The position numbers were made by a program, and so were the translations under genes. A stretch of DNA of 64,000 bases from the NCBI RefSeq assembly GCF_053078305.1, contig NZ_CP166879.1. The stretch is one strand, 5' to 3'. Below the pieces are notes generated by a model, which worked only from the letters and a program-made list of their open reading frames with translations, was not told the DNA's origin and searched no databases. This document shows positions 32,181 to 55,203 of this stretch, piece by piece (position 1 is the first letter of the stretch; the number at the start of each line of letters is the position of its first letter).

Positions 32181-32181
32181 T

Positions 32182-35927: not shown

Positions 35928-35937
35928 GTAAGGGGAA

Positions 35938-37362: not shown

Positions 37363-37366
37363 GAGG

Positions 37367-37708
37367 ATGAGCAGAATTTATGGCCGGGTGAAAAAGAGGA
37401 TGAAGGTATTCGCCCTGTATACGCTGTTGCTGACAGGGATTACCGTGTTTTCCCTCTGGCTGGCCGATACCGGTATACGTCACGCAGAAGGATTTGCGGC
37501 CCTGCGGGAGTGGATGTATGAGACACGTTATGGCTGGCTGGGATGGCGTCTGTGTCTTTACAGTGCGATCGGATGGCTGGGGTGGAGGATCTGGCATGCG
37601 CCGGGGTTCAGGGCAGAATACCGGGCTTCTTTTCTGCGTATGGCCACAGTCAGTGTTCTGTTTATCCTGCTGTGTGAATACGCCATTTTTGCTGAGCCGG
37701 GGCGTTGA
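37367..37708 (+). CDS. membrane protein (113 aa)
   Basis: ATG after GAGAGG; three TMs. Confidence 0.45.
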   Translation: MSRIYGRVKKRMKVFALYTLLLTGITVFSLWLADTGIRHAEGFAALREWMYETRYGWLGWRLCLYSAIGWLGWRIWHAPGFRAEYRASFLRMATVSVLFILLCEYAIFAEPGR

Positions 37709-37714
37709 GCAATC

Positions 37715-39965: not shown

Positions 39966-40105
39966 TGAAAGTGCTTAATTCTCTGCGAACGGCCAAAGAG
40001 CGACCTCCTGACTGTCAGATAGTGAAGCGCAAAGGGCGATTGTATGTAATTTGTAAATCCAATCCTCGTTTTAAGGCTGTTCAGGGACGCAAAAAAAAGC
40101 GTTGA
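39965..40105 (+). CDS. ykgO: ribosomal protein L36 paralogue
   Basis: Not in the track (46 aa). [46 protein letters not shown]. The start overlaps the ykgM stop by 1 nt. Confidence 0.85.
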
Positions 40106-40320
40106 TTCCGAAGCTTGTACATAGACTGTGAGCAGTGCTCAGACATGATTTATGTCGGTACATTAGCATTGATGTGTGTCGGCATTAATTAATTTTTGTG
40201 GATGCGTTCTATCATTCATATCTTCCTGTGCTTTGCTGCTTGATGGGAAATCCTCTTCCAATATCACGGCGATGTTCACTTTTTGCGTAAGTGGACATCG
40301 CTGCGTATTTTTTGTTAGTT

Positions 40321-40584
40321 GGGGTTTGAGGCTCAGTGGAACAATAACCGCCGTTAAGCGGTCATTTTAAATAGCCAAAAATCAACCCAAAAATCAACCA
40401 GCCAATTTACATCGTGAATCTGCGTTCTTGGCTATCTGTTTTGGGGGGGCCAAGTTGGCTTTAGTCATCCTGGCCGTTTGCGGAACAAAAGACGTTGTTG
40501 ATCTCAACAGATTGATTTACCTGTTATTGACCATTCAATTGAACCGCTTAACCGCCTTTTGAGTTCCACTACTCCCCAAACCCC
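40321..40584. mobile_element. Tn3-family-derived miniature inverted-repeat element (TIME), 264 bp
   Basis: Terminal IRs GGGGTTTGAGGCTCAGTGGAAC...GTTAAGCGG and (reverse) GGGGTTTGGGGAGTAGTGGAAC...GTTAAGCGG resemble the Tn3 38-bp IR. 5-bp direct repeat TAGTT at 40316-40320 and 40585-40589. No transposase. Confidence 0.8.
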
Positions 40585-40588
40585 TAGT

Positions 40589-41683
40589 TTAGTTTTTAGT
40601 TTCCAACGGTGGTAATTTTTCAAGTGTCAGTAGTTCCTGCCCCTTTACCCGACGGCATTGGGAAGCTGCATCCTGAAGTTTTTCGCGAACGTTATTATCA
40701 TAGTCGGGATCCAATAGTTGGTATTGAAGACTATCTTTGTATGATTGAATGATATTTAGTGGACAGATAAGGCGTATATCACCGAGTGAATAAAGTTTTA
40801 CTGCCTTAAGTAAATAGTATTTTTCATCTGAAGAGCGAGCACTCTGCCAGGCTGAGTTTCTGAAATATTCAGCAGGATATGAGGTGGTCGGTATTCCATA
40901 AACATGAGGAGTCAAGTCCATGATTCCTGATATTTTAAGGAAAATAGTTAGTATTAGAGCTGGAACCATATGCACAAACGTAAAAATGAAGGCTAATATT
41001 CCAGCCATGATTCCGCCAGTCACAATTACCTGATTTAGCAAGCTGGTGCGGGTTCTTAACCTGAGGAAAACAATACAGGGAATAAGTGAAAAAATAATCA
41101 GAAGAATTGATAATACTATAACACTCAACACCTGCCAGAACTCGTTTATTCCTTCCGGGAATTCCAACGTATGAAGAAATAACTCAAGAGGAATAATATA
41201 TATGCAGGCTGCGTGGGTGAATAGCGTTGACTGTACAATATGCATGGAAAGAAACTTTTTGATCTGCTTCCACTTACCCTCTGTGCTTATCTGTCTATAA
41301 GTAATAGAGCCATTGAGACACAGAGAAAGTATAAAACTGCAAATCCAGATAATGCTTAACTGAAGTAGCACATATTGTTCAATTTCTTTTCCTGCGTTGT
41401 ACATGAGGAAAAAATAACCAAAAAATATCAGTGTTGATAATAGCGAGGTCAGAAGAACGATTTTGATGTTGTTTTCCGTCAGTTCATTCCGGAAATCACT
41501 TTCCCCTGGATAATTGGAAATATAGAATCCTGCCACTAGTGAGGGCATAAATAACGCCATGCAAAATAGGAGTACGCTGATACAAGCAAAGACCATCAGA
41601 TAACTGAACAATGATGAAAAAGAAATACTGTCAAAAAAAAGTCCTGTTTGTCCAATACGCGCAAGATGTGACCATATAAACAA
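40589..41683 (-). CDS. polytopic membrane protein (364 aa), unknown function
   Basis: About 8 hydrophobic segments plus a roughly 90-aa soluble C-terminus; AT-rich. Confidence 0.5.
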   Translation of the reverse strand: MFIWSHLARIGQTGLFFDSISFSSLFSYLMVFACISVLLFCMALFMPSLVAGFYISNYPGESDFRNELTENNIKIVLLTSLLSTLIFFGYFFLMYNAGKEIEQYVLLQLSIIWICSFILSLCLNGSITYRQISTEGKWKQIKKFLSMHIVQSTLFTHAACIYIIPLELFLHTLEFPEGINEFWQVLSVIVLSILLIIFSLIPCIVFLRLRTRTSLLNQVIVTGGIMAGILAFIFTFVHMVPALILTIFLKISGIMDLTPHVYGIPTTSYPAEYFRNSAWQSARSSDEKYYLLKAVKLYSLGDIRLICPLNIIQSYKDSLQYQLLDPDYDNNVREKLQDAASQCRRVKGQELLTLEKLPPLETKN

Positions 41684-41881
41684 TGCTACAATAGAAGTTG
41701 ACGCGATCGGTGTAAGGATTGTTAAAAACCAAGCACATAGTTTTATAAAATGTTTGTTTACTCTGTAATTTTCTATATTTTAGTGTCCATTCAAAGTTTG
41801 ACATATGATCTAGCTAATGACTCCATTTTTGGGCATTGCTTACCAACATACCTCTTATGTGTATTACTGTGAAGGAGAACG

Positions 41882-41998
41882 ATGAATAGCGACTATTCAC
41901 GTGGATCTCCACAACAACCATCAATATTCCAGCCATTATCATTCCCGGTATCCTTACCGGCATTACCTGTAGAATCGGTTATTGTTGTTGCCCTATAA
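41882..41998 (+). CDS. possible 38-aa small protein
   Basis: Strong RBS GAAGGAGAACG before the ATG. Not in the track. MNSDYSRGSPQQPSIFQPLSFPVSLPALPVESVIVVAL. Confidence 0.2.
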   Translation: MNSDYSRGSPQQPSIFQPLSFPVSLPALPVESVIVVAL

Positions 41999-42026
41999 CA
42001 CACTTTTGTGGCTATAACGTTTATAG

Positions 42027-42521
42027 CTATCGACAAAAAACCATATTAATTCTTTTGGAAAAAAGAAAATAAGGTATCCATATAACAACACCAAATATTC
42101 CACTCACTAATAATCTGATATTATCTGAATCCAGCTGTACGTCAAAAAGAATAGCCGGTAATAAAGTAAGATAGAGAGCAATAATCAGTCCTGTTGCATA
42201 ATAAGCGATCATGGCTTTTCGAGTTCCTTTTTTGCGTCTGAAAAACAACCACGTTGCATAAAGGGAAACAATGAATCCACATATCAGCAACACAAATGCC
42301 CCCATAGCGTAATAAGATAAAAAGCCAGTTTCATTGAAATAATTGAATGCAGTTATGGTAAAACTGTAAAGTTCAATAGTACTACCAATAACACCCAAGA
42401 TAAGTCCCAGAGCAGGAAGATATAATAGTCCATTAATTTTACTTAACTCTTCTCTTTCACAGGCATCACACAATCCCGACTCTTTGTTTGCTTCTGACAT
42501 TTTACATTTTATACATTCCAT
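42027..42521 (-). CDS. DUF2569-like membrane protein with an N-terminal CxxC...CxxC zinc ribbon
   Basis: CIKC...CDAC followed by four TM helices. The layout resembles YdgK/DUF2569 (from memory). Confidence 0.5.
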   Translation of the reverse strand: MECIKCKMSEANKESGLCDACEREELSKINGLLYLPALGLILGVIGSTIELYSFTITAFNYFNETGFLSYYAMGAFVLLICGFIVSLYATWLFFRRKKGTRKAMIAYYATGLIIALYLTLLPAILFDVQLDSDNIRLLVSGIFGVVIWIPYFLFSKRINMVFCR

Positions 42522-42606
42522 TTTTTATTCCATTATTCATTGCGTTACGATAATGTTTAGTTTTTTAAACATCCCCCACCACATGTATGGGGATTGTTGC
42601 AAATCT

Positions 42607-42862
42607 CACTTAGGATCTGATGGTGTTTTCTTACGGGAGTTAAATTTATCTATTAAATTAAATACTATTGTAGCTAATGTTATTGCTGTTCCTGCTATAC
42701 AACCAAAAACGATAGCTCTTTTAAACTGATTCACTGGAAAATAAAACCCATCACCTTTAAAAAATAAAAGATTGAAACCGCCCCTCCCAGAAATAGTAAC
42801 ATGACTATAGATGATAAACAGCTATAAAGGAACAATATCACATAACTATATAGTTGTTTCAT
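42607..42862 (-). pseudogene. cdiI: orphan cdiI homologue, frameshifted
   Basis: DNA and protein homology to cdiI 43100..43348 in two different frames: N-terminal MKQLYSYVILFLYSCLSSIVMLLFLGGAVSIFYFLK, C-terminal GDGFYFPVNQFKRAIVFGCIAGTAITLATIVFNLIDKFNSRKKTPSDPK. The shift is near A6 at 42759-42764. Confidence 0.65.
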
Positions 42863-43061
42863 TTTTTCTTATCCTCTGACGAACCTTTCGGTTTATTGAG
42901 TTATTGGCTCCTTCAGGTAACTCACCTTTGGCAAGTTTATCCAGTCCTGCCTGCTTCTGTTCCGAGGTGAGATTATTGGCATCAGCATACTGATTCCATG
43001 AGGAAACCGCCTGACCATAACTCACCATTCCTGATGGAAGACTGAGCGAGTTATTCTCAAC
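42846..43061 (-). pseudogene. orphan cdiA-CT remnant (VENN plus about 45 aa of CT, toxin core deleted)
   Basis: VENNSLSL...SSWNQYADANNLTSEQKQAGLDKLAKGELPEG parallels the cdiA sequence VENNALSF...TSWNKYAVDNNLTPEQTQAGLDKIAKGDMPDS, then ends after 17 unrelated codons. Confidence 0.65.
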
Positions 43062-43099
43062 AACAATCCTAACCGCAAAGGTTGGGATTGTTGTTAATC

Positions 43100-43348
43100 T
43101 CACTCAGGATCTGATGGAGGTTTTTTACGAGAATTAAACTTATCGATCAGATTAAAAACTATCGCTGCTAGTGTTATCGATGTACCTGCTATGCACCCAA
43201 ACACAATAACTCTTATCATTTGGTGGGTCGGGAAAAAAAAGAATCCTTTTGTTAGGTAAATAAATAAAGCTCCTCCCCCCATCAAAAGAAATCCACTGAT
43301 GATACAAAAGAGGCATGCATATATGAACAATACAATGTAAGCAATCAT
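43100..43348 (-). CDS. cdiI: CdiI immunity protein (82 aa, integral membrane)
   Basis: 4-nt overlap with the cdiA stop. Hydrophobic helices IVLFIYACLFCIISGFLLMGGGALFIY and VIVFGCIAGTSITLAAIVF. Confidence 0.7.
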   Translation of the reverse strand: MIAYIVLFIYACLFCIISGFLLMGGGALFIYLTKGFFFFPTHQMIRVIVFGCIAGTSITLAAIVFNLIDKFNSRKKPPSDPE

Positions 43349-46300
43349 TTCCCCTCCTCCTTCTTCGCGCTAGAAGAGAACTGATTATTACTACTTGCTT
43401 CTTTTATATATCCACCAAGAAATTCACTACCAAAAGATCCTGTCGCATCAAATATAAATCCCGGAAACTCTTTCCCAGTAACTGAGTTTACTATTCCGGG
43501 AGCATATACTCCAAATGCTCCACCCAATCCGGCCCCGGCAGCAGCCCCTCCAATAGAGCCTGTATTTGGACCATCGGTAAAGAATGCACCACCCATCGCA
43601 ATTCCGACGTTTTGTCCGACAGTTCTCCCCGGCGCAAGCATACCCGCAATGCCTGAACTGGCACTGCTTTTCCAGTCCCAGTTTTTGTTTTCATTACCTG
43701 GCTGGCTTAAATCAAACCACTGGTAACTTCCATTGGCTATCTCCGCGACGACTCCACCACTGACCATTTTACCGACCGAAGCAGCAGGCCCCAGATACCA
43801 TGCCCCGGCAATCATTACACCATCCTGATATCCATCCACGATCACTTTCGTGATATTGGTGCTGTCCGGCATATCACCTTTCGCTATCTTATCCAGTCCA
43901 GCCTGTGTTTGTTCCGGTGTCAGATTATTGTCCACCGCGTACTTGTTCCATGATGTAGCCGCAGCAGCATTGCTTTCAAAACCATCACCGAAGCTGAGCG
44001 CATTATTCTCAACCGTCGTCTTACCTGACTGTGCTCCGGCTACCGCTGAAGCTCCCGAATCTCCCACCAGACCACCGGCCAGGCCGGCAGCAACCGTTGC
44101 CAGTGTCGAGACCGTCTGCTTCTCTGTCCCGCTCAGTTCACTCACCGGCTTACCGTACATCTGTGTGGCTATCATTCCCACCACCTCGCCGGTGGCTGCG
44201 CCTGCGGCACCAGCCAGAGCATTCTTACCCTGTGCCAGAGACAGGGCTGCATTCACTACTGCATGAGCTGCCACACGTCCCGCACCGTCCGGGGTGGTCT
44301 GTTTGATAATTTCAGCAATATACGGTGCTGCACCACCTGCCAGGGCTGCACTCAGATTACCGCCGGCCAGCCCCTGTACTGCTGCCGTTGCGGCCTGTAT
44401 CGCCTGCTGGTATTTGCCTCCCGTTCCAAAACCTGAGGCCGCCATACCGTTATTGTAGGCCCGCTGCGCCACATCCTGTTCCGTGAACGGTTTTCCTGCT
44501 GCCTCAAGCTCCTCACGGGCCTGATTCAGTGCTGCCGGGTCCCGCTTCGCTTTCTCACCAGCTATCTGGCCTTCCGTTCTGGCAATATCTGCCACCTGGT
44601 TACCAATCTCACCAATGAGCTGCGCCTGCTGCAGTCGCTGCTGCTCTTTTTCCCTGTCAAAGATGGGGGACAGCGTCTGGTTTGCATGTGCTGCGTCACG
44701 GTTCAGGTCTGCCACATCCTGTTTCTGGCTCTGCGTATCCCGGATGGTGATATTCCCGGCAGACACAGCCGACTGAGTGGTGCTTTCTGCATGGCCTTCA
44801 TGATTTGCACCAACCAGCAGATTGTTGGCCATATTTCCCGCGAACTGGCCACCGATGCTGCCGCCAGTGCTGATACCCACGCTCTGGTGTTCAACTTTGT
44901 AATCAGCACGATTTTCGATATCACGGAAGCCCAGTGTACCGGTATCCAGCCGGTTTTTATCTGCCGTTGCCGTGGACGCAATCACCGCACCGTTCAGTTG
45001 CGTATGCTGTCCGGTGGTGACATCAAACCCGCCCCTGCCGGCAAAAATCCCCGTCTGCTCCTGCACACTGTCATAGTTACTGTGCATTTTATCCCGGCTG
45101 AGGCTCACACTCGCCGAACCGCTCATGGACCCGAAAGTGAAGCTGCCTCCGGCACTGGCATTCTGCTGCTTACTGTCATAACGGTCACTGTCCTGCTCAC
45201 TGGTCAGTGTCAGATGACGACCGGCATCCACTTTCACCGTTTCACCGCCGGCCTGCACGCCGGTAAGCGTGGTGTCCCGCCCGCTGATAATGGTCAGGCG
45301 GTTTCCCGCATCCACCGTGGTTTCTGTATGGGTGGTACCGTTGCCTTTTTCACTGCCCTTACCCTGGTTTGCGCTGGCTGAAACACTGATACCCCAGCCT
45401 CCGGCCCCCACACCGATACCGACACCCACACTGCCGCCACTGGATGAGTTCTTTCCTTCCAGCTTTGACGTGTTTTCTGCTGATACCAGATTCACGTCAC
45501 GGTTTGCCTGCAGCAGAACGTTGTTCCCTGCCTTTATCTGACTGCCCTGTATCGTCAGGTCACCATCCACGTCCTTCACGCCGGAGCCGGTGGCCTGAAT
45601 ACTGAGGTTATTACCTGCGGTCAGGGCGCTGTTCTTCGCCACCGTCTGCTCTGACTGCTGTTCTGATTTCGAAGACTGGCTGCCGTAAGAGAGGCTGATA
45701 CCCACGGCATTGTTATTCTCTTTCTGGTTGCCCTGTGCTTCTGCCAGTCGTCCGGCCTGCACGGCCTGAGCCCCCGAGAGCGCGGCCTTCACCCCCTGCA
45801 GGGCTTCAAGCCGGCTGTTTCCGGCAGATTTCGCCGCCTGCACGGTCTCCACCGTCGTGTTCAGGGCGCTGCCCACTGTGCCGGACAGGGCAAGCGTCAG
45901 ACCGGAGGTTTTCTGCTCCACCGAATGCGTCTGCACATGCCGGTCTGTGACGGCGCTAATGCTGACCTCCTTACCACTGAGTGCCATGTCCCTGCCGGCA
46001 ATCAGGTCAGCACTGTTGGCGCTCAGCCGGTTACCTGCCTGAAGGGAAACATCACCGTGAACACTCCCCACCGTGCTGCCTTTCTGTGTGCTGTCTGTTG
46101 CGGTGTCCGTGACTTTCAGACTCTGGCTGCCCACACTGAATCCCACACCTCCGGAGCTCATCAGCCCGGATTTTTTCTCCTGTTTCAGGTGTGTTTCACG
46201 GTTGCTTTCTGTCAGCGTGCCGATACTCAGGTCATTTCCGGCAGCCAGGGAGACACGGTTATCCCCGGCCACACTGCTGCCCGTGACGTTCAGATTATGT

Positions 46301-49300
46301 CCGGCACTGATACTGACCGTATCCCCGTTCAGTTCACTGCCCGTCATGGTCCGGCGGTCAGTGACATCATGCGTGGTTGTGGTGGTTTTCGATAACATCC
46401 CGCTGCTGCCGGTCACTTTATGGTATTCATCCAGCGAGCGGGTATTCTGTGCACCGGTCAGCGTCACGTCATGACCTGCCATCAGGGCCAGGCCTTTCTG
46501 AGCTGACAGCGATGCCGCCTGTGACGTCATATCCCGTCCGGCGGTCAGCGTGACATCACCGTTACCGGCAAGCGTGCTGCCCGTACTCTGTGTGACGCCC
46601 TGCGACAGACGATTATTTTTATCCCAGATAATATTGTCCTGCGCGGAAGTGGTCACTGTGGAAAGCGTCATATCCCTGCCCGCACTGAGTTGCGTCAGGC
46701 TGTCCTTACCCTGATTCACCACCGTTGCAGCCGTCAGATTCATATCCCGTCCGGCCTGCAGCACCAGTCTTCCCTGGTCGTTCTGCACATACACGCCGGC
46801 CACACTGTCGATACTGGTACGTTCAAAATGGTTCTGTCCGGCGTCGCGCTGTGCCGTACGGGTGGTGGTGGTCAGACTGATATCCCGTCCGGCCATCGCC
46901 AGCAGGCTGTCCGTGGCCTGCAGCAGCCCGCCGGTACTGTTAATATCCGTCCGGGCCGTCAGGCTGACATTTGCTCCCTGAATGGAGCCGGCCTGGTTGT
47001 GAATGTTTTCTGCACTGAGCTGCACGGTCTGCTTCCCGGCCAGTTTACCGCTGTTAAACAGGTCACCATCCAGCTTCATCACCATGTCCCTGCCGGCAAT
47101 CAGCGCACCGGCACTGTTCACATCACCGGGTTTTACACGGGCATACACCTGAGGTACCTGAACTGTCTGCGTGCTGCCGTCCGGCAGTGTCACCGTGGTG
47201 TTAACCAGCCAGACAATATCCCCGGTCAGTAACGCCATCTGCTCAGCCGTCAGCGCCACACCCGGTTTCAGGTTGTATTGCTTACCAAATGCAATACCCG
47301 CATCCATTAATGCCTTAAACTGCTCTTCATCACTGCCGTATCTGTCCAGGTACCGTTGCCCGGTCAGAGCGACAACCTGCTCTCGAATCAGACGCTGCTC
47401 GTAAAAACCGTCTCCCAGACGTTTGAGCATGTTATCCCCGTTCTGAGAAAACGCCTTCTGCATGTAATCACTGCCCAGCCACATCTTCTGGTTCGTAAAA
47501 CGCGGGTCCGTTTCAACCAGATATGGCACATTCACTGCCGGATTTGTTTTAAACAGACTGCTGTCCGGCAGACGGGTATCCGGCCCGGCAACATGGATAC
47601 TGCCCTGAGGTGTGCTGACTTCAAACTGCTGCCCCGGCAACAGAATGACCGGTTCACCGGCAGACACCACCGGGCGAAGCGGTATCCGGTCAGTAGCGGC
47701 TACTGCCGCATCCACATTTCCGGCCTGTCCTGTCTGTACATCCGTTCCCTGTGGCTTCAGAGGAGAAAGCGTGACCTGGCTGCCCTGAATCTGTCCGTGG
47801 CTGGTGAGCTCTCCCGGCTTCAGCGTAATGCTCTGAATTACAGTGGGCGGAGTGTACTGAGAGGTTTTCTCCCCCTGCTTATCCTTTCCTTTTTTCCTGA
47901 TACGGTAATAATACGTGGATGTTCCTGAGTCCGTAACATGCCGCTCGCCACTGACACTGACATTTTCCACGCTTCCTGACGGAATGGTCAGCAGGCCGCC
48001 TGCAACAACCTGACTCTTATCATTAAGCAGTTTGTCTGCCACAATCGTCATGCCGGCACCGGACAGAATTTTTCCCGGGTCGGAGTCTTTTACCCGGGTT
48101 TCTTCCACGGTACGGGTGTAATCATACTGCGTGAATTTATCTCTGGCGCCTTCCGGTGTATGCAGTTTTTTCAGTGAGTTACTGGAATCGTTATCCACAT
48201 AAACGCCCGGTTCACCGGCGCTCCAGCGTTTATCTGAGCCGCTGAGCTGATACTCAGTCACCTTTTCCGTGGAAACCACCACGCGCTCCGTGGTGAAATG
48301 GTCATTGACGTTATTGATTTGTCCGGCACTCAGTACCAGATATCCGGCGGCTTCAATAGTGGCACTGTGATTATTCAGTACACCGGCTTTCCCCGTGGCG
48401 GCACCATTCGCATCCAGCATGCCACCAGTATGCATATCACCTGCACTGTAAATCAGGCTGTGCGTCCGGTTATTCAGGGTCTGTACCCCTAAGTCCACAC
48501 GCTCACGCCCGGCCAGCGTCGCCGCCACGCCATTTTCTTCCAGATTATTAAATGTGGCAGCGCTGACACCAACAGCATCGCCGTAGATTCGCCCGGTACC
48601 GGAATTCGTCAGGGTGTTCGCCTGAAGATGCGTATATTTCCCGTCAATCAGCCCACGGTTCAGCAGTGTGTCCGTCACGTTAAGCCAGGTCTGCCCGGCA
48701 CTGATTTCACCTTTCTCTGTGTTTTCAAGGCGGATGCTGTTCAGGTCAAGCCGGCTGCCTGCCAGCAGGCTGCCGGTATTAGAGACATCGCCATTAACGG
48801 AAAGCGTAAGGTTTCCGTTCGCAATAGTCTGACCACTGTTGCTGAACGTTGTGTTACTTTTCAGCGTCATATCGCCCAGCGAAAGCAGTTTCCCGTCACC
48901 ACCGAGCTGACCGGCATCCACAGATACTGACTGCCCGGCCTTAACCACGCCGTCACGGTTCGAAAACGCCAGCTGACGGCCACTGACAGACAATGTCGCG
49001 CCGGAAGAGAGGACGCCGTCATTATTACTGAGCGTCCTGTCTGCCATAACCGTAAGCGCCCTGTCTGCCAGAATACTGCCCTCCTGGTTATCAAGGTCCT
49101 GCGTCGTGATGTGTATTGTCTGCGCTTCCAGCCCCTGACCGGTATTCTGCGTGTGGCGATTGATAAACTGCAGGGCGTTCAGCGTAATGGCGGAACCACT
49201 GCGAATCAGACCAGAGACGTTGTCCACAACGCCCCGTACACTGTTGAGCAACATGTCGCCCACAGACTGTATTTGTCCGTGGCTGTTCTGCAGACCTCCC

Positions 49301-52290
49301 GTATGCAGACGGAGTTCACCTTCACTGACCAGCCGGCCCCCCTCACGGTTATCCAGCGAGGTGGTGCTCAGGTCAGCTGTCGTTTTCGCCCCCACGGTCC
49401 CGCCCCGGTTATCCATTGCTCCGGTACTGACAGTCAGTTCCTGCAGGCTGTTCAGCGTACCGCGTCTGTTATCCAGCGTCTGGCCTGCGGTATTAATGCT
49501 GATACCCCTCCCCTGAATAAGACCGGACTGATTGTTCAGCGCCTGGCTGTTCCAGCCGAGCAGACCGTTTGCCACCATCTGACCGGATGTATTGTTAACC
49601 ACGCCTGCAGTCAGGGACAGAGCATCTCCCGACAAAAGCACACCGGCAGTGCTGTCCAGTGTGCCGGCATTCAGCGTCATCGGACCCTGACTGATAACCC
49701 CGCCCCGGTCACCACTATTACGGTTACTCAGTGTGTCAGCACGGAGATTCAGCGATGCACCGCTCTGTATCAGGCCGCCGGCATCGTTGATGATATCCGT
49801 CGAGGAAAGTGTCAGTGACTGCTGTGCCACCAGTCTGCCGCCCTGATTATCAAACCGTGTGACATCCAGCCTGCTGTTACCGTTGCTGACCACCGTCCCC
49901 TGCTGATTTTCCAGCACACTCAGGTGCGTATTCAGGTCCCCGCCGGCGGCAAGCGCCCCTTCCTGATTACTGACATCACCACCACTCAGCAACATATCCG
50001 TCCCGGCCTTCAGTGCGCCTTTCTGGTTCATCAGCGTACCTGACGATATCTGTAATGACGTCTGACTCCCCAGCACGCCCTGACGGTTATCGAGCGTTCC
50101 GGCGTTCAGGGTCATATCCTTCTGACCCGCCATAAATCCCTGCTGGTTATTCAGCATACCGGCCCGCACTGTCAGGGTACCGGCGCTGCTGATACCACCC
50201 CGTGTTTTCGTGTTCCGGTTACTGAGTACCCCGTCCTGTACATCCAGCGTCATGTCACTGCCGGACTGAATCAGACCATCATCAGAGACCAGTTCGCTGC
50301 CTGACACAGACAGCGTTTTCTGTGAAAGCAGTCTGCCGGACGTATTATCCAGCGCACCATCCAGCGTCACAGACAGCCCGTCAGCCACCACCGTACCCTG
50401 GTGGTTATTCAGATTCCCTGCCGAAATATCCAGCCTGCCGGCGGACTCCATTCGTCCCTCAGTATTGCTGACAGCCTGCTGTGTTTTTATCCTGCCCGTT
50501 CCGGCAGCAGCTGAAATCAGTCCGTTGTCGTTATTCAGCGCCTGTGTATTAATCAGGATGTCACGGCTGGCAAGCAGACGTCCCTGCTGGTTATCCACGG
50601 CGCCGGTTGTCCTCACCTGCAGACTGCCTGACTGCGCCGCCTGCACTTTCCCCCTGCGATTATCAAGGCTCAGTGCATCCAGACGCACCGCGCCATTTGC
50701 CGCAAACAGCCCTTCCCGGTTATCCACGCTTCCCGGCAGACTCAGCGAAAAATCCCCTGTTCCCGTCTGAGTCAGACTGCCTTTACGATTTGACAGGCTT
50801 TGTGCCGATATCTGCAGTGTGTCGGCATTTATCGTGCCACCATTATTGCTGAAGTGCCCGACAGTCCGGGCGGAAAGCGTACCGGCACTCAGTTGCGCAT
50901 TCTGTGTGGACAGATTTCCACTGGTTGCATCCAGCTCAGTATGTTGTCCCTGTATCCGGCTGTTGCTTAAATCCAGCCCCTGCCCCTTCAGTTGCATGTC
51001 CCCACCGGACAGAACCTGTCCGTGTGCCGCCAGTTCGCCGGTGGTACTGACAGTCAGGTTGCCCGCTGCCGCCAGACGTCCGTCATCTTTCACCCCGGCG
51101 GCCAGCAGACTCCGCTCACCGCCGGTCAGACGCGCTGTCTGAATCCGGGTGTTGCGACGTGATGCCACAGAGCCTGTATGGGTGAAGACACCATCACTCT
51201 GTATCTGCGTATCCTGCCCCGCATAAACAGAACCACTGTTATGCAGCTCCCGGGTTGTCGCCAGATGCACATCCGTTTTCGCACTGATACTGCCACTGTT
51301 TTCAATACGTCCGTCAGCCGTCAGGGTAACCGCCCCTGCCTGTGCACCAATATGACCGGCGTTACGAACACCCACCCCCGTTTCCGTACCGACAAGGCGA
51401 ATTTTTCCGGCATACATTCCGCCAAGACTGGCCACATCCAGTGCCATCTGAGGCTGTGAAGAGACATCACCGGTCTTTTTCTCAATCTGCCCGTGCGCGA
51501 TATCCACATTGTTACGTCCTGTGGTCACTTTCAGATCCTGCGCCCAGATACCCGCATTAATCTTCACAGACCGGGCAATGATATCGGTATAATCCGTGCG
51601 CGAGGCATCCATCCCTTTGCCCGTAACCTGAATCTCACCACGTTCAACACTGAATCCGGTCAGACTGCCGTTTTTCATCTGCGGCTGCCCCGTGGTCAGC
51701 GTGGCCCGGTTCGCATTAATAAAACCGCACCCGTCGCAACTGATGCCGGCCGGGTTCGCAATCACCACCTGCGCCTTTTTACCGGCAACCTCAACAAAAC
51801 CGTTCAACTGGCTGGGATTGCGACTGTTCACTTCATTAAGAATGATTCTGGCCTCTCCCTTAGCCAGCCACGGGTTCCCGGCCACCATGCCACCCAGTTG
51901 AGTCTGCACATTGTTATGGGCATTATTCAGAATGACGCCCTGGTTACCGACGTCGAACTGGCTGTATGCGTTATGTGAAACCCCGCCGGCAGAAGGCGTC
52001 TGAATATTCACCTGCGGAATGCCGCTGGCCGTCTGCGTAATCGTGGGCTGCTGATACCCTGGTGCGCCATGGTCTGCGACAATGCCTGCAGCACTGACAG
52101 AATGCACCATCCCCGAAGCCAGCCACAAAGAGAATGCAAGCGGCGTGACACGGCAGATACGTTGCCTGTGTGGATATCCTGTGCGGGAGGACAGTGATGT
52201 ACCGGCGCGACCGGAACGGGCAATATCTGCCACCACCATCAGCATTCCCCGGGCTTTGTTAAAAATAATGCGGTAACAATTTCTGTTCAT
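43345..52290 (-). CDS. cdiA: CdiA contact-dependent inhibition exoprotein (2981 aa)
   Basis: ESPR signal MNRNCYRIIFNKARGMLMVVADIA; TPS domain (NAYSQFDVGNQGVILNN, IANPAGISCDGCGFINA); long FHA-type repeats; VENN at 44002-44013 followed by a 218-aa CT. Confidence 0.95.
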   Translation of the reverse strand: MNRNCYRIIFNKARGMLMVVADIARSGRAGTSLSSRTGYPHRQRICRVTPLAFSLWLASGMVHSVSAAGIVADHGAPGYQQPTITQTASGIPQVNIQTPSAGGVSHNAYSQFDVGNQGVILNNAHNNVQTQLGGMVAGNPWLAKGEARIILNEVNSRNPSQLNGFVEVAGKKAQVVIANPAGISCDGCGFINANRATLTTGQPQMKNGSLTGFSVERGEIQVTGKGMDASRTDYTDIIARSVKINAGIWAQDLKVTTGRNNVDIAHGQIEKKTGDVSSQPQMALDVASLGGMYAGKIRLVGTETGVGVRNAGHIGAQAGAVTLTADGRIENSGSISAKTDVHLATTRELHNSGSVYAGQDTQIQSDGVFTHTGSVASRRNTRIQTARLTGGERSLLAAGVKDDGRLAAAGNLTVSTTGELAAHGQVLSGGDMQLKGQGLDLSNSRIQGQHTELDATSGNLSTQNAQLSAGTLSARTVGHFSNNGGTINADTLQISAQSLSNRKGSLTQTGTGDFSLSLPGSVDNREGLFAANGAVRLDALSLDNRRGKVQAAQSGSLQVRTTGAVDNQQGRLLASRDILINTQALNNDNGLISAAAGTGRIKTQQAVSNTEGRMESAGRLDISAGNLNNHQGTVVADGLSVTLDGALDNTSGRLLSQKTLSVSGSELVSDDGLIQSGSDMTLDVQDGVLSNRNTKTRGGISSAGTLTVRAGMLNNQQGFMAGQKDMTLNAGTLDNRQGVLGSQTSLQISSGTLMNQKGALKAGTDMLLSGGDVSNQEGALAAGGDLNTHLSVLENQQGTVVSNGNSRLDVTRFDNQGGRLVAQQSLTLSSTDIINDAGGLIQSGASLNLRADTLSNRNSGDRGGVISQGPMTLNAGTLDSTAGVLLSGDALSLTAGVVNNTSGQMVANGLLGWNSQALNNQSGLIQGRGISINTAGQTLDNRRGTLNSLQELTVSTGAMDNRGGTVGAKTTADLSTTSLDNREGGRLVSEGELRLHTGGLQNSHGQIQSVGDMLLNSVRGVVDNVSGLIRSGSAITLNALQFINRHTQNTGQGLEAQTIHITTQDLDNQEGSILADRALTVMADRTLSNNDGVLSSGATLSVSGRQLAFSNRDGVVKAGQSVSVDAGQLGGDGKLLSLGDMTLKSNTTFSNSGQTIANGNLTLSVNGDVSNTGSLLAGSRLDLNSIRLENTEKGEISAGQTWLNVTDTLLNRGLIDGKYTHLQANTLTNSGTGRIYGDAVGVSAATFNNLEENGVAATLAGRERVDLGVQTLNNRTHSLIYSAGDMHTGGMLDANGAATGKAGVLNNHSATIEAAGYLVLSAGQINNVNDHFTTERVVVSTEKVTEYQLSGSDKRWSAGEPGVYVDNDSSNSLKKLHTPEGARDKFTQYDYTRTVEETRVKDSDPGKILSGAGMTIVADKLLNDKSQVVAGGLLTIPSGSVENVSVSGERHVTDSGTSTYYYRIRKKGKDKQGEKTSQYTPPTVIQSITLKPGELTSHGQIQGSQVTLSPLKPQGTDVQTGQAGNVDAAVAATDRIPLRPVVSAGEPVILLPGQQFEVSTPQGSIHVAGPDTRLPDSSLFKTNPAVNVPYLVETDPRFTNQKMWLGSDYMQKAFSQNGDNMLKRLGDGFYEQRLIREQVVALTGQRYLDRYGSDEEQFKALMDAGIAFGKQYNLKPGVALTAEQMALLTGDIVWLVNTTVTLPDGSTQTVQVPQVYARVKPGDVNSAGALIAGRDMVMKLDGDLFNSGKLAGKQTVQLSAENIHNQAGSIQGANVSLTARTDINSTGGLLQATDSLLAMAGRDISLTTTTRTAQRDAGQNHFERTSIDSVAGVYVQNDQGRLVLQAGRDMNLTAATVVNQGKDSLTQLSAGRDMTLSTVTTSAQDNIIWDKNNRLSQGVTQSTGSTLAGNGDVTLTAGRDMTSQAASLSAQKGLALMAGHDVTLTGAQNTRSLDEYHKVTGSSGMLSKTTTTTHDVTDRRTMTGSELNGDTVSISAGHNLNVTGSSVAGDNRVSLAAGNDLSIGTLTESNRETHLKQEKKSGLMSSGGVGFSVGSQSLKVTDTATDSTQKGSTVGSVHGDVSLQAGNRLSANSADLIAGRDMALSGKEVSISAVTDRHVQTHSVEQKTSGLTLALSGTVGSALNTTVETVQAAKSAGNSRLEALQGVKAALSGAQAVQAGRLAEAQGNQKENNNAVGISLSYGSQSSKSEQQSEQTVAKNSALTAGNNLSIQATGSGVKDVDGDLTIQGSQIKAGNNVLLQANRDVNLVSAENTSKLEGKNSSSGGSVGVGIGVGAGGWGISVSASANQGKGSEKGNGTTHTETTVDAGNRLTIISGRDTTLTGVQAGGETVKVDAGRHLTLTSEQDSDRYDSKQQNASAGGSFTFGSMSGSASVSLSRDKMHSNYDSVQEQTGIFAGRGGFDVTTGQHTQLNGAVIASTATADKNRLDTGTLGFRDIENRADYKVEHQSVGISTGGSIGGQFAGNMANNLLVGANHEGHAESTTQSAVSAGNITIRDTQSQKQDVADLNRDAAHANQTLSPIFDREKEQQRLQQAQLIGEIGNQVADIARTEGQIAGEKAKRDPAALNQAREELEAAGKPFTEQDVAQRAYNNGMAASGFGTGGKYQQAIQAATAAVQGLAGGNLSAALAGGAAPYIAEIIKQTTPDGAGRVAAHAVVNAALSLAQGKNALAGAAGAATGEVVGMIATQMYGKPVSELSGTEKQTVSTLATVAAGLAGGLVGDSGASAVAGAQSGKTTVENNALSFGDGFESNAAAATSWNKYAVDNNLTPEQTQAGLDKIAKGDMPDSTNITKVIVDGYQDGVMIAGAWYLGPAASVGKMVSGGVVAEIANGSYQWFDLSQPGNENKNWDWKSSASSGIAGMLAPGRTVGQNVGIAMGGAFFTDGPNTGSIGGAAAGAGLGGAFGVYAPGIVNSVTGKEFPGFIFDATGSFGSEFLGGYIKEASSNNQFSSSAKKEEGK

Positions 52291-52305
52291 TCTGATAAAC
52301 CTGAC

Positions 52306-52833
52306 TTATCTCTCCGGCACATCCACAGCAAGCGGGTGCTGCACACGCCACTGGCGCGCCTCTTCACGACTGACCTGTGCACCCCGGAAATTCATCACCC
52401 GTAACCCGGTCTGCTGCCCACGGTGGTACAGCGAACGCCAGCACAGACGGGGAAAAATATCCTGCCGGACAAGACGACTCATATCCGGAGTGTGTCCAAA
52501 AGGGGCAACCCAGTCACAGACCCACATCCGGTCGCCGCTGTTCCAGTCCGACTGAGGCATGAGAATTGCCGGCTGCGTAAGATAACGCGCCTCTGCCTCC
52601 GGGCTGAGCCAGGCCTGGCTCATGAAGAAAACCGGTCGCCCCTGCTCTGTTGCCACCACATACTGTCGGTGCTTAATCACCGGCAGCTGCAGGTCCGGCA
52701 GGGTATGCAGTGGCGCATCACGATGCAGGGGGGAGTGCATCCACAACCAGACGGCCGCCCCCAGGACTTCCGCCTCATTGACCGGCTCACCGGAATACAG
52801 GGGACTCAGAACGTCATATTTCCCGTTACGCAT
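52306..52833 (-). CDS. cdiC: CdiC, HlyC/TAAT-family toxin-activating lysine acyltransferase
   Basis: LGAAVWLWMHSPLHR, WNSGDRMWVCDWVAPFG parallel the HlyC motifs LGHVSWLWASSPLHR, WTSGDRKWFIDWIAPFG. Located between cdiB and cdiA. Confidence 0.85.
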   Translation of the reverse strand: MRNGKYDVLSPLYSGEPVNEAEVLGAAVWLWMHSPLHRDAPLHTLPDLQLPVIKHRQYVVATEQGRPVFFMSQAWLSPEAEARYLTQPAILMPQSDWNSGDRMWVCDWVAPFGHTPDMSRLVRQDIFPRLCWRSLYHRGQQTGLRVMNFRGAQVSREEARQWRVQHPLAVDVPER

Positions 52834-52842
52834 GAAACTTTC

Positions 52843-54582
52843 TCAGAAATCCCGGAACAGATTAAAACCGGCTGTCACATCACTCGTCATAAAACCCGCC
52901 GGCTTTGAAAACGGACGACCGATGAAAACGTCATAATCCGTACTGAACAGTTGCCCCCTCAGCCCCACAACACCACCGGCCAGATGACGTCCCACCAGAT
53001 ATTCACTGCCGGCTCCCCCCACCTCGCCGTAATCCATTCCCAGATATAACGCCTGCTCCGGCAGTGGCGTACGCCAGGCCAGGTCGTTGCGGATATACCA
53101 GCCGTTACTGGCATTCAGCGTTCGCTCCCCGTCAAAACCACGAACCGTCCAGCGGTTACCGATGGCAAACTGTTCCTGTGGGGTCAGCGGGGTATTGCTC
53201 AGCTGGCGCTGATACCGGAAGGAATAACTGAAGGGCTGCTCTGCCAGTGTAAAGGGCAGATTAAAGGATGCATTCATCTGCAGGATCTTACTGAGCGCCG
53301 TTGCCTCACCGAAGATTTCCTCCGGTGCCGGCTGTGCACCAAACCAGCGGGTTCCCCGTTGCCAGCTGACACCAGCATCCAGTGTGGCCTGAGAAATATA
53401 ATGACGGTGCTGCAGCCCAAGTCGCCAGGCCGCTGTCTGCCGGCGCTGCACCTGGATTTCCGTATCATTAATGTAGTTACGCGACCTGCGGGCCTGAACA
53501 TCGTAAGTCAGCACCGTTTTCTGCGTCCCGTTACGATGCAGTACCCGGCTCAGCTGCATGCCCAGATTCTGACTCTCGCCACTGTACTGGTAATCCTCAA
53601 CCGCACCAGCTACCGTCTGATGGTAATCGTAATCACTGGCGGTGACGGAAAACTGCCAGTAACCGAAAGGCACAGAGTAATGGGCCGTGTAGTTTTTACT
53701 GCCCTTACCCCCGTAATGTGGAAAATTATGGGTGGCAGAAACATACAGCAGGTCACTCAGGGAAAAAGGATTATCCAGAGAAAATGTTATACCACCGAGA
53801 TAACGCCCTGTGCTGCGGGTACCTGAATCATCAAGCGAAAACCCCAGTCGCCAGTATTTATCCTGTTTACGGGTAATAAGAATATCACTTTCCCCTGGCT
53901 GCTCACCGGGCACAATTTCCATATCAGCCTGCACACCCGGCAGTCGTTGCATATTCTCCAGCCCCTGCTCAATGTCCCGTAAATCCAGCAGAGAACCTTC
54001 GTGTGCCGGGAATGAGGAATACAACTGAATATAGTCATCACTGTCCGGTGTCAGACGCACATGTCGCACAACACCGGGAATAACAACCAGCCGGAGGATA
54101 CCGCTTTTTAAATCCTGCGAAGGTGCCAGAACACGGGTGGTGACATAACCATGATCGACAAGACGGTTCTGCAATGTACTCATCAGCAGATTAATTCCTT
54201 TCGCCCCCAGGCAATGCCCGACCGCCCCGTTGGCGATTTTTTGTAAAGGCAGCCAGTGTGGTAACGCATCAGCCCCCTTCAGTTCCGTCTGTTTAATCTG
54301 AAAACAGGGCGTTTCAACAGGAAAATTAATCTTATGGGCAAAAGAGCCAGGTGCAGAAAGGCGAACATCAGGGGCTGAAGGCGTCAGTTGTTGCTCAAGG
54401 GCTTCCTGACGCTGCTGCTGAATGATAAATGTATCCTCTCCACTACGCCGGATATCCGCGGCCTGAAGAGATAAAGGCGATAATAAAACAGACATCAGTG
54501 TCAGTGATAAAATGAACGGACAGCGCCGGAATAAGCTTTGTTCCTCAGCCCTCTCGTTCCTGCAACATAATTTTCCAGCCAA
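52843..54582 (-). CDS. cdiB: CdiB TpsB-family (ShlB/FhaC-type) outer-membrane transporter
   Basis: Signal peptide ...[15 protein letters not shown]-type N-terminus, beta-barrel ending in ...GFNLFRDF. Alternative start at M30 (54495). Confidence 0.9.
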
Positions 54583-55203
54583 ACGAAAAACCTTTTATGC
54601 ATGCTGTGTCAACAATCACCAGCCTCCTGACGATGTCTGCCGCCATTTTGGCAATAACACACTACCGCCCTTCCGGAATTCCCCGTATCAACCGGTACCA
54701 GAATGCTGAGTAACCAGTCAGCCAAATCAGGCTGGTTTAATTTTGCTCATTATAGAATAATGATCTGAAAAATATCAATATAACAGGTGTATCGATCGTA
54801 ATTGCAGATGCTTGCAGATCTTTATTCCAGTATATGTTGTCAAGCTGGAATATTTAGAAATATATATCCATGACTAATGTGGAAATACAGAAAATTATTC
54901 CAGTGAATGCTTTTTATACGGTCTCCTGGCACAGAAAATGGTGATTTTTGATTTGAATCATTGAAATCAGTTCTGCTAATAAGAAGACATGCTGAAAAGC
55001 CGATTTTCAGGGGGTGATTGAAGGGATTGTGAGTTTTTCCTTCGGCTTTTAACGTAACTTCCTGTTTTCCTGATATTCCACGGCAAGATTAATTTTTAGC
55101 GGAGCAGAATGAATAAAATCTTCATCTGGTGTTTTTGCTGCGCGTAAATGCAGGTGTAACTGTGGATGTTATCCACTGAAGAGCTGCTGATGAGGATGAA
55201 GAC

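What the first reader, a model, noticed from the sequence alone, without database searches (positions are those of the whole stretch)
43100..54582. Complete cdiBCAI locus with a CdiC acyltransferase carried as ICE cargo
The gene order on the minus strand is cdiB (TpsB), cdiC (clear HlyC/TAAT motifs), cdiA (2981 aa) and cdiI. Most cdi loci lack cdiC. From memory, cdiC-containing loci form a distinct class in which CdiC lipidates CdiA to promote target-cell recognition. Here the whole system sits in the cargo bay of a conjugative element, flanked by AT-rich DNA. It could therefore spread horizontally, and may also favour ICE-bearing cells.
Basis: partly seen in the sequence, partly recalled or inferred. 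Interest (0 to 1): 0.55.

Follow-up and report, generated by a model that had tools for sequence, protein, structure and literature searches.

The report
Known lipid-assisted E. coli toxin-delivery locus on ICE
This is an intact copy of an already characterised type of E. coli bacterial-competition weapon (a class IV cdiBCAI contact-dependent inhibition system with a membrane-depolarising toxin). It sits as optional cargo in a conjugative element, which is a tidy but ordinary finding.

Summary
Four tightly packed, uninterrupted minus-strand genes encode CdiB (52843-54582), the acyltransferase CdiC (52306-52833), a 2981-aa CdiA (43345-52290) and an 82-aa membrane CdiI (43100-43348).

The system is already known:
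- The CdiA sequence is identical to GenBank KFD79096.1. That accession is listed in the supplement of Halvorsen et al. 2024 among "group 3" CDI ionophore toxins.
- Its receptor-binding region matches, residue number for residue number, the landmarks published for the class IV effector CdiA-STEC4. These include the acylated Lys1467 within KKGK 1466-1469.
- CdiC keeps the catalytic His37 and Asp107.

The ICE-cargo reading is also supported. Ten TIGR037xx ICE families flank the locus. A sister ICE shares the backbone up to 39973 and again from 55020, but lacks the roughly 15 kb in between.

The locus runs further left than reported. It also includes a degenerate orphan toxin/immunity module (42606-43103) and a DUF2569 gene (42027-42521). 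This copy of the ICE has a 2-bp frameshift in its traG-like gene, so self-transfer is uncertain.

cdiC occurs in 197 of 5426 complete E. coli genomes. The ICE-borne arrangement occurs in 2 of them, plus 3 remnants. Stabilisation of mobile elements by CDI has already been published. Interest is low.

The parts
52843..54582 (-). cdiB, the TpsB outer-membrane transporter. The likely start is the TTG at 54582, giving a signal peptide of about 41 aa (..[24 protein letters not shown]|AD).
   Evidence: Pfam ShlB, POTRA_2 and POTRA_3. Closest solved structures are the CdiB entries 6WIL (9e-79) and 6WIM (3e-53). TTG is the only in-frame start upstream of the signal peptide. The internal Met30 is not conserved in strain 154.
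52306..52833 (-). cdiC, a toxin-activating lysine acyltransferase (TAAT/HlyC family)
   Evidence: Pfam HlyC 6.2e-31. Matches ApxC (4WHN) at 1.4e-26, with SPLH37R and D107WVAPFG aligned to the ApxC motifs. His37 and Asp107 are the residues shown to be required in CdiC-STEC4. The sequence is identical to WP_044189736.1.
43345..52290 (-). cdiA, a class IV effector of 2981 aa. It contains ESPR 1-37, TPS 68-330, FHA-1 repeats, the receptor-binding domain at about 1328-1589 with KKGK 1466-1469, FHA-2, PT-VENN 2716-2766 (VENN at 2760-2763) and CdiA-CT 2764-2981.
   Evidence: Identical to KFD79096.1. Landmarks V1328, R1465, K1466-R1535 (7 Lys, no internal Arg), P1589 and S2159-R2160 match the published CdiA-STEC4 numbering.
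43348..44001 (-). cdiA-CT, a group 3 CDI ionophore toxin. It has an N-terminal entry domain and a Gly-zipper-rich C-terminal domain, with six overlapping GxxxGxxxG motifs starting at CdiA residues 2888-2919.
   Evidence: KFD79096.1 lies in the group 3 block of S1 Appendix of PMC11630599. It is 54.9% identical to the group 3 CT of strain 94-3024. Gly zippers were found. It has no Pfam or PDB relative.
43100..43348 (-). cdiI, an 82-aa immunity protein with two hydrophobic segments
   Evidence: Hydropathy peaks at about residues 1-32 and 45-66. Its size and hydrophobicity fit the 72-100-residue two-helix-hairpin CdiI proteins of ionophore toxins. The same sequence was seen on 430 contigs.
42846..43103 (-). 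Orphan cdiA-CT remnant. It keeps VENN and about 50 aa of entry domain, then has an internal deletion of about 450 nt that removes the ionophore domain.
   Evidence: Translation. Alignment to the intact orphan CT on plasmid NZ_CP027453 (L002).
42606..42862 (-). Orphan cdiI pseudogene. A 1-nt frameshift splits the 85-aa gene into ORFs of 43 aa and 42 aa.
   Evidence: The intact 85-aa version is at L002 10664-10921. The same degenerate form is found in L001, L003 and L006.
42027..42521 (-). DUF2569 membrane-protein gene that consistently trails class IV cdi loci and plasmid orphan arrays. Its function is unknown.
   Evidence: Pfam DUF2569 9e-34. Synteny with cdi loci in L001, L002, L003 and L006.
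54749..54778 (-). Candidate cdi promoter (TTGATA, 18-nt spacer, TATAAT; 11 of 12 positions match)
   Evidence: This is a consensus match only, and the region as a whole is not enriched for such sites.
39974..55019 (.). Variable cargo segment of the ICE. It is absent from the sister ICE in E. coli STEC2018-553.
   Evidence: BLAST breakpoints. Annotation of L005.
15733..39233 (+). ICE conjugation module (MPF-G, pKLC102/PAGI-2/ICEclc type). It includes TraD (20119-22326), the TraC-like ATPase (28961-31798) and a frameshifted traG_N gene (37715-39233).

Best explanation
This is a functional-looking class IV contact-dependent growth inhibition operon, cdiBCAI, from E. coli. The mechanism below is inferred from near-identical characterised systems and was not tested here. 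CdiB exports CdiA to the cell surface. In the cytoplasm, CdiC uses acyl-ACP to attach a 3-hydroxy fatty acyl chain to Lys1467 in the basic and aromatic stretch YYYRIRKKGK of the CdiA receptor-binding domain. The lipidated domain binds the phosphorylated heptose core of LPS on a neighbouring enterobacterium. The C-terminal toxin after VENN is then transferred into that cell. Its entry domain uses the inner-membrane protein AcrB to insert the glycine-zipper helical domain into the membrane, which dissipates the membrane potential. The 82-aa two-helix CdiI protects sibling cells. The operon, together with a decayed orphan toxin/immunity pair and a DUF2569 gene, lies in a roughly 15-kb variable cargo slot of a pKLC102/ICEclc-type ICE. 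It can therefore in principle travel with the element and penalise cells that lose it.
For: Shown here:
- All four ORFs are intact, tightly spaced and carry the expected domains.
- CdiC keeps His37 and Asp107.
- CdiA has KKGK at 1466-1469, and seven further published STEC4 landmarks fall at identical residue numbers.
- CdiA is identical to KFD79096.1. That accession sits in the group 3 block of the published ionophore catalogue.
- The CT carries multiple GxxxGxxxG motifs, and CdiI has two hydrophobic segments.
- ICE genes flank the locus.
- A cdi-less sister ICE shares the backbone up to 39973 and again from 55020.
- The same cdi unit (42023-54966) occurs in a non-ICE island.

From the literature:
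- Class IV definition, the LPS-core receptor, CdiC-dependent 3-hydroxydecanoylation of K1467 and a roughly 100-fold loss of inhibition without cdiC (PMC8510554).
- Delta-acrB targets resist all representative group 3 toxins tested, and representatives of each ionophore group depolarise target cells (PMC11630599).
- CDI stabilises mobile elements (PMC4927057).
Against: - No experiment was done on this allele. Expression, export, acylation and toxicity are all inferred.
- The AlphaFold model of the CT was too poor to confirm the two-domain helical fold (pLDDT 41.8).
- Group 3 membership rests on the position of the accession within a block of a spreadsheet and on 55% identity to one named member. 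It does not rest on a structural comparison of entry domains.
- I could not align directly to the CdiA-STEC4 sequence. Only published residue numbers were compared, and residue 1243 is Ser here where STEC4 has Cys.
- The ICE copy has a traG frameshift and the ICE ends lie outside the window, so mobility of this copy is unproven.
Confidence: 0.9

Rival explanations
1. The locus is a two-partner-secreted, acylation-activated cytolysin or adhesin aimed at host cells (ShlA, HpmA or FHA-like, or RTX-like activation). It would not be an interbacterial weapon.
For: The closest solved structures for the CdiA N-terminus are the TPS domains of HpmA-type haemolysins and FHA. CdiC belongs to the family that activates RTX cytolysins. 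RefSeq names the protein a haemagglutinin or adhesin.
Against: The similarity to haemolysins and FHA is limited to the generic TPS domain. The protein has a PT-VENN pre-toxin domain followed by a polymorphic C-terminus, a small overlapping immunity gene and a downstream orphan CT/cdiI remnant, all of which are hallmarks of CDI. The identical protein is catalogued as a CDI ionophore. The class IV homologue was shown to kill E. coli in a cdiI-reversible manner.
Confidence: 0.03
2. CdiC acylates the membrane-inserting C-terminal ionophore toxin, as TAATs do for pore-forming RTX toxins, rather than or in addition to the receptor-binding domain.
For: The CT is a membrane-active toxin with lysines near its C-terminus. 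TAATs classically activate pore-formers.
Against: cdiC travels with the class IV FHA-1 and receptor-binding region, not with a particular toxin. The yak-strain class IV locus has cdiC with a different main CT and a 158-aa downstream protein. The same CT family occurs on plasmids, whereas cdiC was found only on chromosomes, at 217 places and on no plasmid. In STEC4 the single modified peptide mapped to K1466-R1535, and that peptide is conserved here.
Confidence: 0.04
3. The locus and its ICE are decaying passengers. The system would be silent or non-functional in this strain, and the element no longer transfers.
For: The traG-like gene is split by a 2-bp deletion. The orphan module is degenerate. 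An IS66 is inserted in the ICE. Three related genomes keep only the CT-proximal end of cdiA. The locus lies in AT-rich DNA, which could be silenced by H-NS; that last point is inference.
Against: The 11.5-kb four-gene operon has no stop codon or frameshift, and the catalytic and acceptor residues are intact. The same ORFs are intact in strains 154 and CFIAFB20190157 despite 2-3% nucleotide divergence, which argues for purifying selection. The STEC4 locus is expressed from its native promoter. The traG lesion could be an assembly error, and it does not affect CDI itself.
Confidence: 0.15

Closest known systems
Class IV cdiBCAI of E. coli STEC_O31 (CdiA-STEC4 and CdiC-STEC4; Halvorsen et al. 2021, mBio, PMC8510554)
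   Same: The gene order is cdiB-cdiC-cdiA-cdiI. CdiC is 175 aa with His37 and Asp107. The CdiA landmarks V1328, R1465, KKGK 1466-1469, R1535, P1589 and S2159-R2160 fall at identical residue numbers. The same basic and aromatic stretch surrounds K1467.
   Different: The C-terminal toxin differs: here it is a group 3 glycine-zipper ionophore with no Pfam family, whereas STEC4 carries Ntox25 (PF15530). Residue 1243 is Ser here and Cys in STEC4. The genomic context here is an ICE. The context of STEC4 is not stated in that paper.
Group 3 CDI ionophore toxins (Halvorsen et al. 2024, PLoS Genet, PMC11630599), for example CT of E. coli 94-3024 (AKF17068.1)
   Same: The identical CdiA accession, KFD79096.1, is in the paper's list. 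The CT is 54.9% identical to the 94-3024 CT over 92% of its length. It has a glycine-zipper motif, and the immunity protein is 82 aa and very hydrophobic.
   Different: The allele is divergent. According to the paper, immunity proteins within a group protect only against their cognate toxin, so this pair is probably its own specificity type. The 94-3024 toxin sits on a 3146-aa plasmid-borne CdiA with no cdiC.
CdiA-EC93/CdiI-EC93 (class I, BamA receptor, group 1 ionophore)
   Same: It has the same overall CDI mechanism and the same toxin activity, membrane depolarisation.
   Different: It uses a different receptor-binding class and lacks cdiC. The paper's PSI-BLAST lists only about 20% identity to this CT. 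It is plasmid-borne.
ICEEc2 and the pKLC102/PAGI-2/ICEclc family of ICEs (Roche et al. 2010, cited in PMC11537424)
   Same: It has the same set of TIGR037xx conjugation genes, including TraD, a TraC-like ATPase and TraG_N. It also has topoisomerase III, SSB and ArdC accessory genes.
   Different: The cargo here is a CDI system. I did not compare sequences with ICEEc2 itself. The integrase and attachment ends lie outside the window.
ICE-borne CDI system of Proteus mirabilis BL95 (Microorganisms 2024, PMC11278526)
   Same: A cdi operon is carried as cargo on an ICE.
   Different: It is from a different species, and no cdiC or acyltransferase is mentioned in that paper.

Membership tests
Contact-dependent growth inhibition (CdiB/CdiA/CdiI) systems | A TpsB transporter gene next to a TpsA exoprotein with an N-terminal TPS domain and FHA repeats | tested here: met
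   Pfam ShlB and POTRA domains in CdiB; TPS, Fil_haemagg and Fil_haemagg_2 in CdiA. CdiB structures 6WIL and 6WIM are the best PDB matches.
Contact-dependent growth inhibition (CdiB/CdiA/CdiI) systems | A pre-toxin (PT) domain ending in VENN, followed by a variable C-terminal toxin | tested here: met
   PT-VENN 3.7e-18 at residues 2716-2766, with VENN at 2760. The CT is polymorphic among relatives, at 55-85% identity.
Contact-dependent growth inhibition (CdiB/CdiA/CdiI) systems | A small immunity gene immediately downstream of cdiA | tested here: met
   An 82-aa ORF overlaps the cdiA stop by 4 nt. It co-varies with the CT, and the CT plus cdiI block is 100% identical in five genomes.
Contact-dependent growth inhibition (CdiB/CdiA/CdiI) systems | cdiI-reversible inhibition of neighbouring cells that requires contact | not testable with these tools
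   Needs competition co-cultures.
Class IV CdiA/CdiC (LPS-binding, lipidated) | A cdiC (TAAT) cistron between cdiB and cdiA | tested here: met
   The definition is in PMC8510554.
Class IV CdiA/CdiC (LPS-binding, lipidated) | Catalytic His37 and Asp107 in CdiC | tested here: met
   Alignment to ApxC 4WHN.
Class IV CdiA/CdiC (LPS-binding, lipidated) | A class IV receptor-binding domain with an acceptor Lys1467 in a Lys-rich, aromatic and basic segment | tested here: met
   YYYRIRKKGKDK with K1466, K1467 and K1469. The Arg-C peptide K1466-R1535 has 7 Lys. V1328 and P1589 mark the domain borders. This is an indirect test, because residue numbers were compared rather than the STEC4 sequence itself.
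Class IV CdiA/CdiC (LPS-binding, lipidated) | 3-hydroxyacylation of the Lys and dependence on the LPS core | not testable with these tools
   Needs mass spectrometry and waa mutant target strains.
CDI ionophore toxins, group 3 | Recovered by PSI-BLAST from CT-EC93 and placed in group 3 | tested here: met
   KFD79096.1, which is identical to the window CdiA, is listed between the group 3 and group 4 labels of the EC93 sheet.
CDI ionophore toxins, group 3 | A glycine-zipper GxxxGxxxG motif in the C-terminal domain | tested here: met
   Six overlapping matches start at CdiA residues 2888-2919.
CDI ionophore toxins, group 3 | A two-domain all-helical fold with a five-helix ionophore bundle | tested here: inconclusive
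   The AlphaFold2 model is all-helical, but its mean pLDDT is 41.8 and pTM is 0.24, so it is not usable.
CDI ionophore toxins, group 3 | A small (72-100 aa), hydrophobic, two-helix CdiI | tested here: met
   82 aa with two hydropathy peaks.
CDI ionophore toxins, group 3 | AcrB-dependent entry and depolarisation of the target cell | not testable with these tools
   Needs delta-acrB target strains and DiBAC4(3) staining.
Integrative and conjugative element (MPF-G, pKLC102/ICEclc type) | The conserved conjugation gene set | tested here: met
   Ten TIGR037xx families, TraD and the TraC-like ATPase, plus TraG_N.
Integrative and conjugative element (MPF-G, pKLC102/ICEclc type) | A terminal tyrosine integrase, a tRNA attachment site and a relaxase | tested here: not met
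   The window holds no tRNA. I identified no terminal integrase or relaxase among the ORFs I scanned. These features most likely lie outside the 64-kb window. Only an internal PF12835 integrase-domain gene (57553-58470) is present.
Integrative and conjugative element (MPF-G, pKLC102/ICEclc type) | All conjugation genes intact | tested here: not met
   traG_N is split by a 2-bp deletion relative to strain 154.

The most novel reading that the evidence does not exclude
The LPS-binding, lipidated CdiA carried by the ICE may do more than kill. It could act as a donor-recipient adhesin that brings enterobacterial cells with a full LPS core into contact. It would then make ICE acquisition, and so gain of cdiI, the only escape from depolarisation. 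That would couple contact-dependent killing to conjugative spread and to retention of the element. The rarity of the arrangement (2 intact copies and 3 remnants among about 18 closely related ICE backbones) would then reflect a recent or unstable capture.
Probability: 0.08. Interest if true: 0.5.

Novelty: already known. Interest (0 to 1): 0.15.

Why it matters
It matters little beyond bookkeeping. The system class, its lipidation mechanism, the toxin family and the idea that CDI stabilises mobile elements are all published. This exact CdiA is already in a published catalogue.

Three points have modest value:
- This is a clean example of a class IV locus captured in a defined cargo slot of a pKLC102/ICEclc-type ICE in Shiga-toxin-associated E. 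coli lineages.
- Class IV loci carry a conserved, decayed orphan module plus a DUF2569 gene.
- RefSeq annotation of these loci is systematically fragmented although the ORFs are intact.

Tried and rejected
- AlphaFold2 of the CT with a 60-sequence alignment gave pLDDT 41.8. It was unusable, so no fold search was run.
- Pfam, NCBIfam and PDB sequence searches gave no family for the CT or CdiI.
- Searching the supplements of the 2024 paper for peptide strings found nothing, because the files hold accessions only. The group was instead assigned through the exact-sequence accession.
- I could not retrieve the CdiA-STEC4 sequence, because no accession is given in the main text. I compared published residue numbers instead.
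- A literature search for strain O22:H8 154 led nowhere.
- I considered that cdiA and cdiB might be pseudogenes, because RefSeq splits them in related genomes. I rejected this because the ORFs there are uninterrupted.
- I considered Met30 as the cdiB start. I rejected it because it is not conserved and would leave no signal-peptide n-region.


Full report
**1. Observation**

- cdiB, 52843-54582
- cdiC, 52306-52833
- cdiA, 43345-52290 (2981 aa)
- cdiI, 43100-43348 (82 aa)

Pfam gives the expected domains. CdiB has ShlB (1.8e-109) plus two POTRA domains. CdiC has HlyC (6.2e-31). CdiA has ESPR, TPS, both haemagglutinin repeat families and PT-VENN. NCBIfam adds the FHA 20-aa repeat and the NPXG domain.

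The genes are 9 nt and 15 nt apart, and cdiI overlaps the cdiA stop by 4 nt. An 11-of-12 sigma-70-like site lies about 170 nt upstream of cdiB. This is a consensus match only.

The likely cdiB start is the TTG at 54582. It is the only in-frame start upstream of a good signal peptide, and the internal Met30 is not conserved in a relative.

GC content is 0.34-0.41 on the left flank and 0.41-0.46 on the right flank, against 0.54-0.59 inside the locus.

**2. What the proteins are**

CdiC aligns to the solved TAAT ApxC (4WHN, 1.4e-26). The SPLHR histidine falls at residue 37 and the DWxAPFG aspartate at residue 107. Mutation of these two residues phenocopies a cdiC deletion in the characterised class IV system (PMC8510554).

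CdiA carries KKGK at residues 1466-1469. The published CdiA-STEC4 data place the acylated lysine at 1467. The flanking lysines are at 1466 and 1469, with a Gly-Lys motif. The modified Arg-C peptide spans Lys1466-Arg1535 and contains seven lysines. The minimal receptor-binding construct runs from Val1328 to Pro1589, and Ser2159 precedes an engineered XbaI site. In the window protein every one of these holds at the same residue number:
- R1465 precedes K1466.
- There is no Arg before R1535.
- The peptide contains seven Lys.
- V1328, P1589 and S2159-R2160 are all present.

The only landmark that differs is residue 1243, which is Ser here and Cys in STEC4. The C1243S variant is reported to be fully active.

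I therefore treat the protein as a class IV effector. The caveat is that I compared residue numbers from the paper, not the STEC4 sequence itself.

**3. The toxin and immunity pair**

After VENN (2760) the 218-residue C-terminus is glycine-rich. It has six overlapping GxxxGxxxG motifs starting at residues 2888-2919. It has no Pfam, NCBIfam or PDB relative. CdiI is 82 aa with two strongly hydrophobic segments.

An exact-sequence look-up shows that the window CdiA is GenBank KFD79096.1 from E. coli. CdiC is WP_044189736.1.

KFD79096.1 is listed, at 2981 aa, in S1 Appendix of Halvorsen et al. 2024 (PMC11630599). It lies between the "group 3" and "group 4" labels of the PSI-BLAST sheet.

The CT is 54.9% identical over 92% of its length to the CT of strain 94-3024. 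That protein is a named group 3 member, AKF17068.1, 3146 aa, on plasmid pO104_H21.

The paper reports several relevant results:
- Representatives of every ionophore group depolarise target cells.
- Delta-acrB target cells resist all representative group 3 toxins tested.
- The immunity proteins are hydrophobic hairpins of 72-100 residues.

My own AlphaFold2 model of the CT was all-helical but of very low confidence (pLDDT 41.8). The fold criterion is therefore left inconclusive.

The toxin family is widespread in Enterobacterales and is usually annotated "adhesin".

**4. The locus is longer than reported**

Directly downstream of cdiI, ORF 42846-43103 contains a second VENN motif and about 50 residues resembling the entry domain.

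Compared with an intact orphan CT/cdiI pair on plasmid NZ_CP027453 (L002), the window copy has lost about 450 nt that encode the ionophore domain. Its 85-aa orphan cdiI (42606-42862) is split by a 1-nt frameshift into ORFs of 43 aa and 42 aa.

The same degenerate module is present in strain 154, in CFIAFB20190157 and in a non-ICE class IV locus (L006). It is therefore old.

A DUF2569 membrane-protein gene (42027-42521) follows in all of these contexts.

**5. ICE context**

Upstream on the plus strand are these ICE families, all far above their cut-offs:
- TIGR03759, 03754 (TraD), 03747, 03746, 03749 and 03752
- TIGR03744 (the TraC-like ATPase)
- TIGR03757, 03756 and 03755

A TraG_N gene, topoisomerase III, SSB and ArdC are also present. 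This is the pKLC102/PAGI-2/ICEclc type, known in E. coli as ICEEc2-like elements (cited in PMC11537424).

The window is about 99% identical to the same element in E. coli O22:H8 strain 154.

A sister ICE in E. coli STEC2018-553 shares the backbone up to window position 39973 and again from 55020. Between these points it has only about 220 bp containing a transposase fragment. Window 39974-55019 is therefore a variable cargo segment.

Conversely, a class IV locus in a yak isolate sits in an IS-rich non-ICE island. It shares window 42023-42902 and 44002-54966. This defines the cdi unit that moves between contexts.

Counts among 5426 complete E. coli genomes:

| Feature | Genomes |
|---|---|
| cdiC present (all chromosomal, none on plasmids) | 197 |
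| At least 80% of the locus present | 178 |
| Closely related ICE backbone (≥95% identity) | about 18 |
| traG-to-cdiA-CT junction present | 5 |
| Whole ICE-borne locus present | 2 |

No tRNA, terminal integrase or relaxase was identified in the window. The ICE ends probably lie outside it.

The traG-like gene is split into 37715-38299 and 38283-39233 by a 2-bp TA deletion relative to strain 154. This copy may therefore be unable to transfer itself, or the assembly may contain an error.

**6. Mechanism**

The domain content, the intactness of the genes, the conserved catalytic and acceptor residues and the cargo status are shown here. The rest is inferred from the near-identical published systems.

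- CdiB exports CdiA.
- CdiC 3-hydroxyacylates Lys1467.
- The lipidated receptor-binding domain binds the LPS core.
- The CT enters the target through AcrB and dissipates the membrane potential.
- CdiI protects sibling cells.

In that model, CDI eliminates cells that lose the linked element (PMC4927057).

**7. Rivals**

*A host-directed haemolysin or adhesin.* The PT-VENN domain, the polymorphic CT, the immunity gene, the orphan architecture and the catalogue entry all argue against this.

*Acylation of the CT rather than the receptor-binding domain.* This is unlikely. cdiC co-occurs with the class IV receptor-binding region whatever the toxin. The CT family also occurs on plasmids, whereas cdiC was never found on one.

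*A decaying, silent passenger.* This cannot be excluded for the ICE, given the traG lesion and the IS66 insertion. The 11.5-kb operon, however, is uninterrupted here and in two relatives that differ by 2-3% at the nucleotide level.

**8. Novelty and verdict**

The class (2021), the toxin family (2024), the stabilisation concept (2016) and ICE-borne CDI in another species (Proteus mirabilis, 2024) are all published. The exact protein is in GenBank and in a published list.

I found no paper describing this particular ICE-plus-class-IV combination, but it is an unsurprising combination of known parts.

Noticed in passing
window 37715-39233 (+): The ICE traG-like gene (Pfam TraG_N) is split into two ORFs by a 2-bp TA deletion near 38290, relative to E. 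coli strain 154, where it is one 501-aa gene. This is either a real inactivating lesion or an assembly error.
   Followed up: partly
window 42606-43103 (-): A degenerate orphan cdiA-CT/cdiI module. It has a VENN-containing CT stub with an internal deletion of about 450 nt, and an 85-aa orphan cdiI broken by a 1-nt frameshift. The same degenerate form is conserved in other class IV loci.
   Followed up: yes
window 42027-42521 (-): A DUF2569 gene with an N-terminal CxxC...CxxC motif and several hydrophobic segments. It always trails class IV cdi loci and plasmid orphan-toxin arrays. Its role is unknown, and it could be another immunity or accessory gene.
   Followed up: partly
window 39702-40105 (+): Paralogues of type B (zinc-independent) ribosomal proteins L31 and L36 (ykgM/ykgO-like) are carried on the ICE, just left of the cdi cargo segment.
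   Followed up: no
window 40589-41683 (-): A 364-aa ORF with many hydrophobic segments lies in very AT-rich DNA. It has no Pfam or NCBIfam match. It is shared with plasmid cdi orphan regions but is absent from the sister ICE and from the yak-strain locus.
   Followed up: no
window 5581-8098 (-): An IS66-family element (tnpA, tnpB, tnpC) is inserted in the left part of the ICE. Strain 154 lacks it there but has two IS66 copies at the position equivalent to window ~34455.
   Followed up: partly
L001 18846-29996; L003 12546-23714; L006 16089-27113: RefSeq/PGAP annotates class IV cdiA and cdiB as several partial or pseudogene pieces in three genomes. In L001 and L003, which I translated, the ORFs are uninterrupted (2981 aa and 579 aa). 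This is probably an annotation artefact linked to the TTG start and the size of the proteins.
   Followed up: partly
E. coli OkiPb01714, OkiPb01696 and STEC1585 (hits H98-H100): Three genomes carry the same ICE with only the CT-proximal end of cdiA plus cdiI, the orphan remnants and DUF2569. The match stops at window ~43995. These appear to be remnants of the ICE-borne locus that retain immunity.
   Followed up: no
window 57553-58470 (+): An internal integrase-domain gene (PF12835 and PF12834) is conserved in all related ICEs. It is not the terminal integrase.
   Followed up: no
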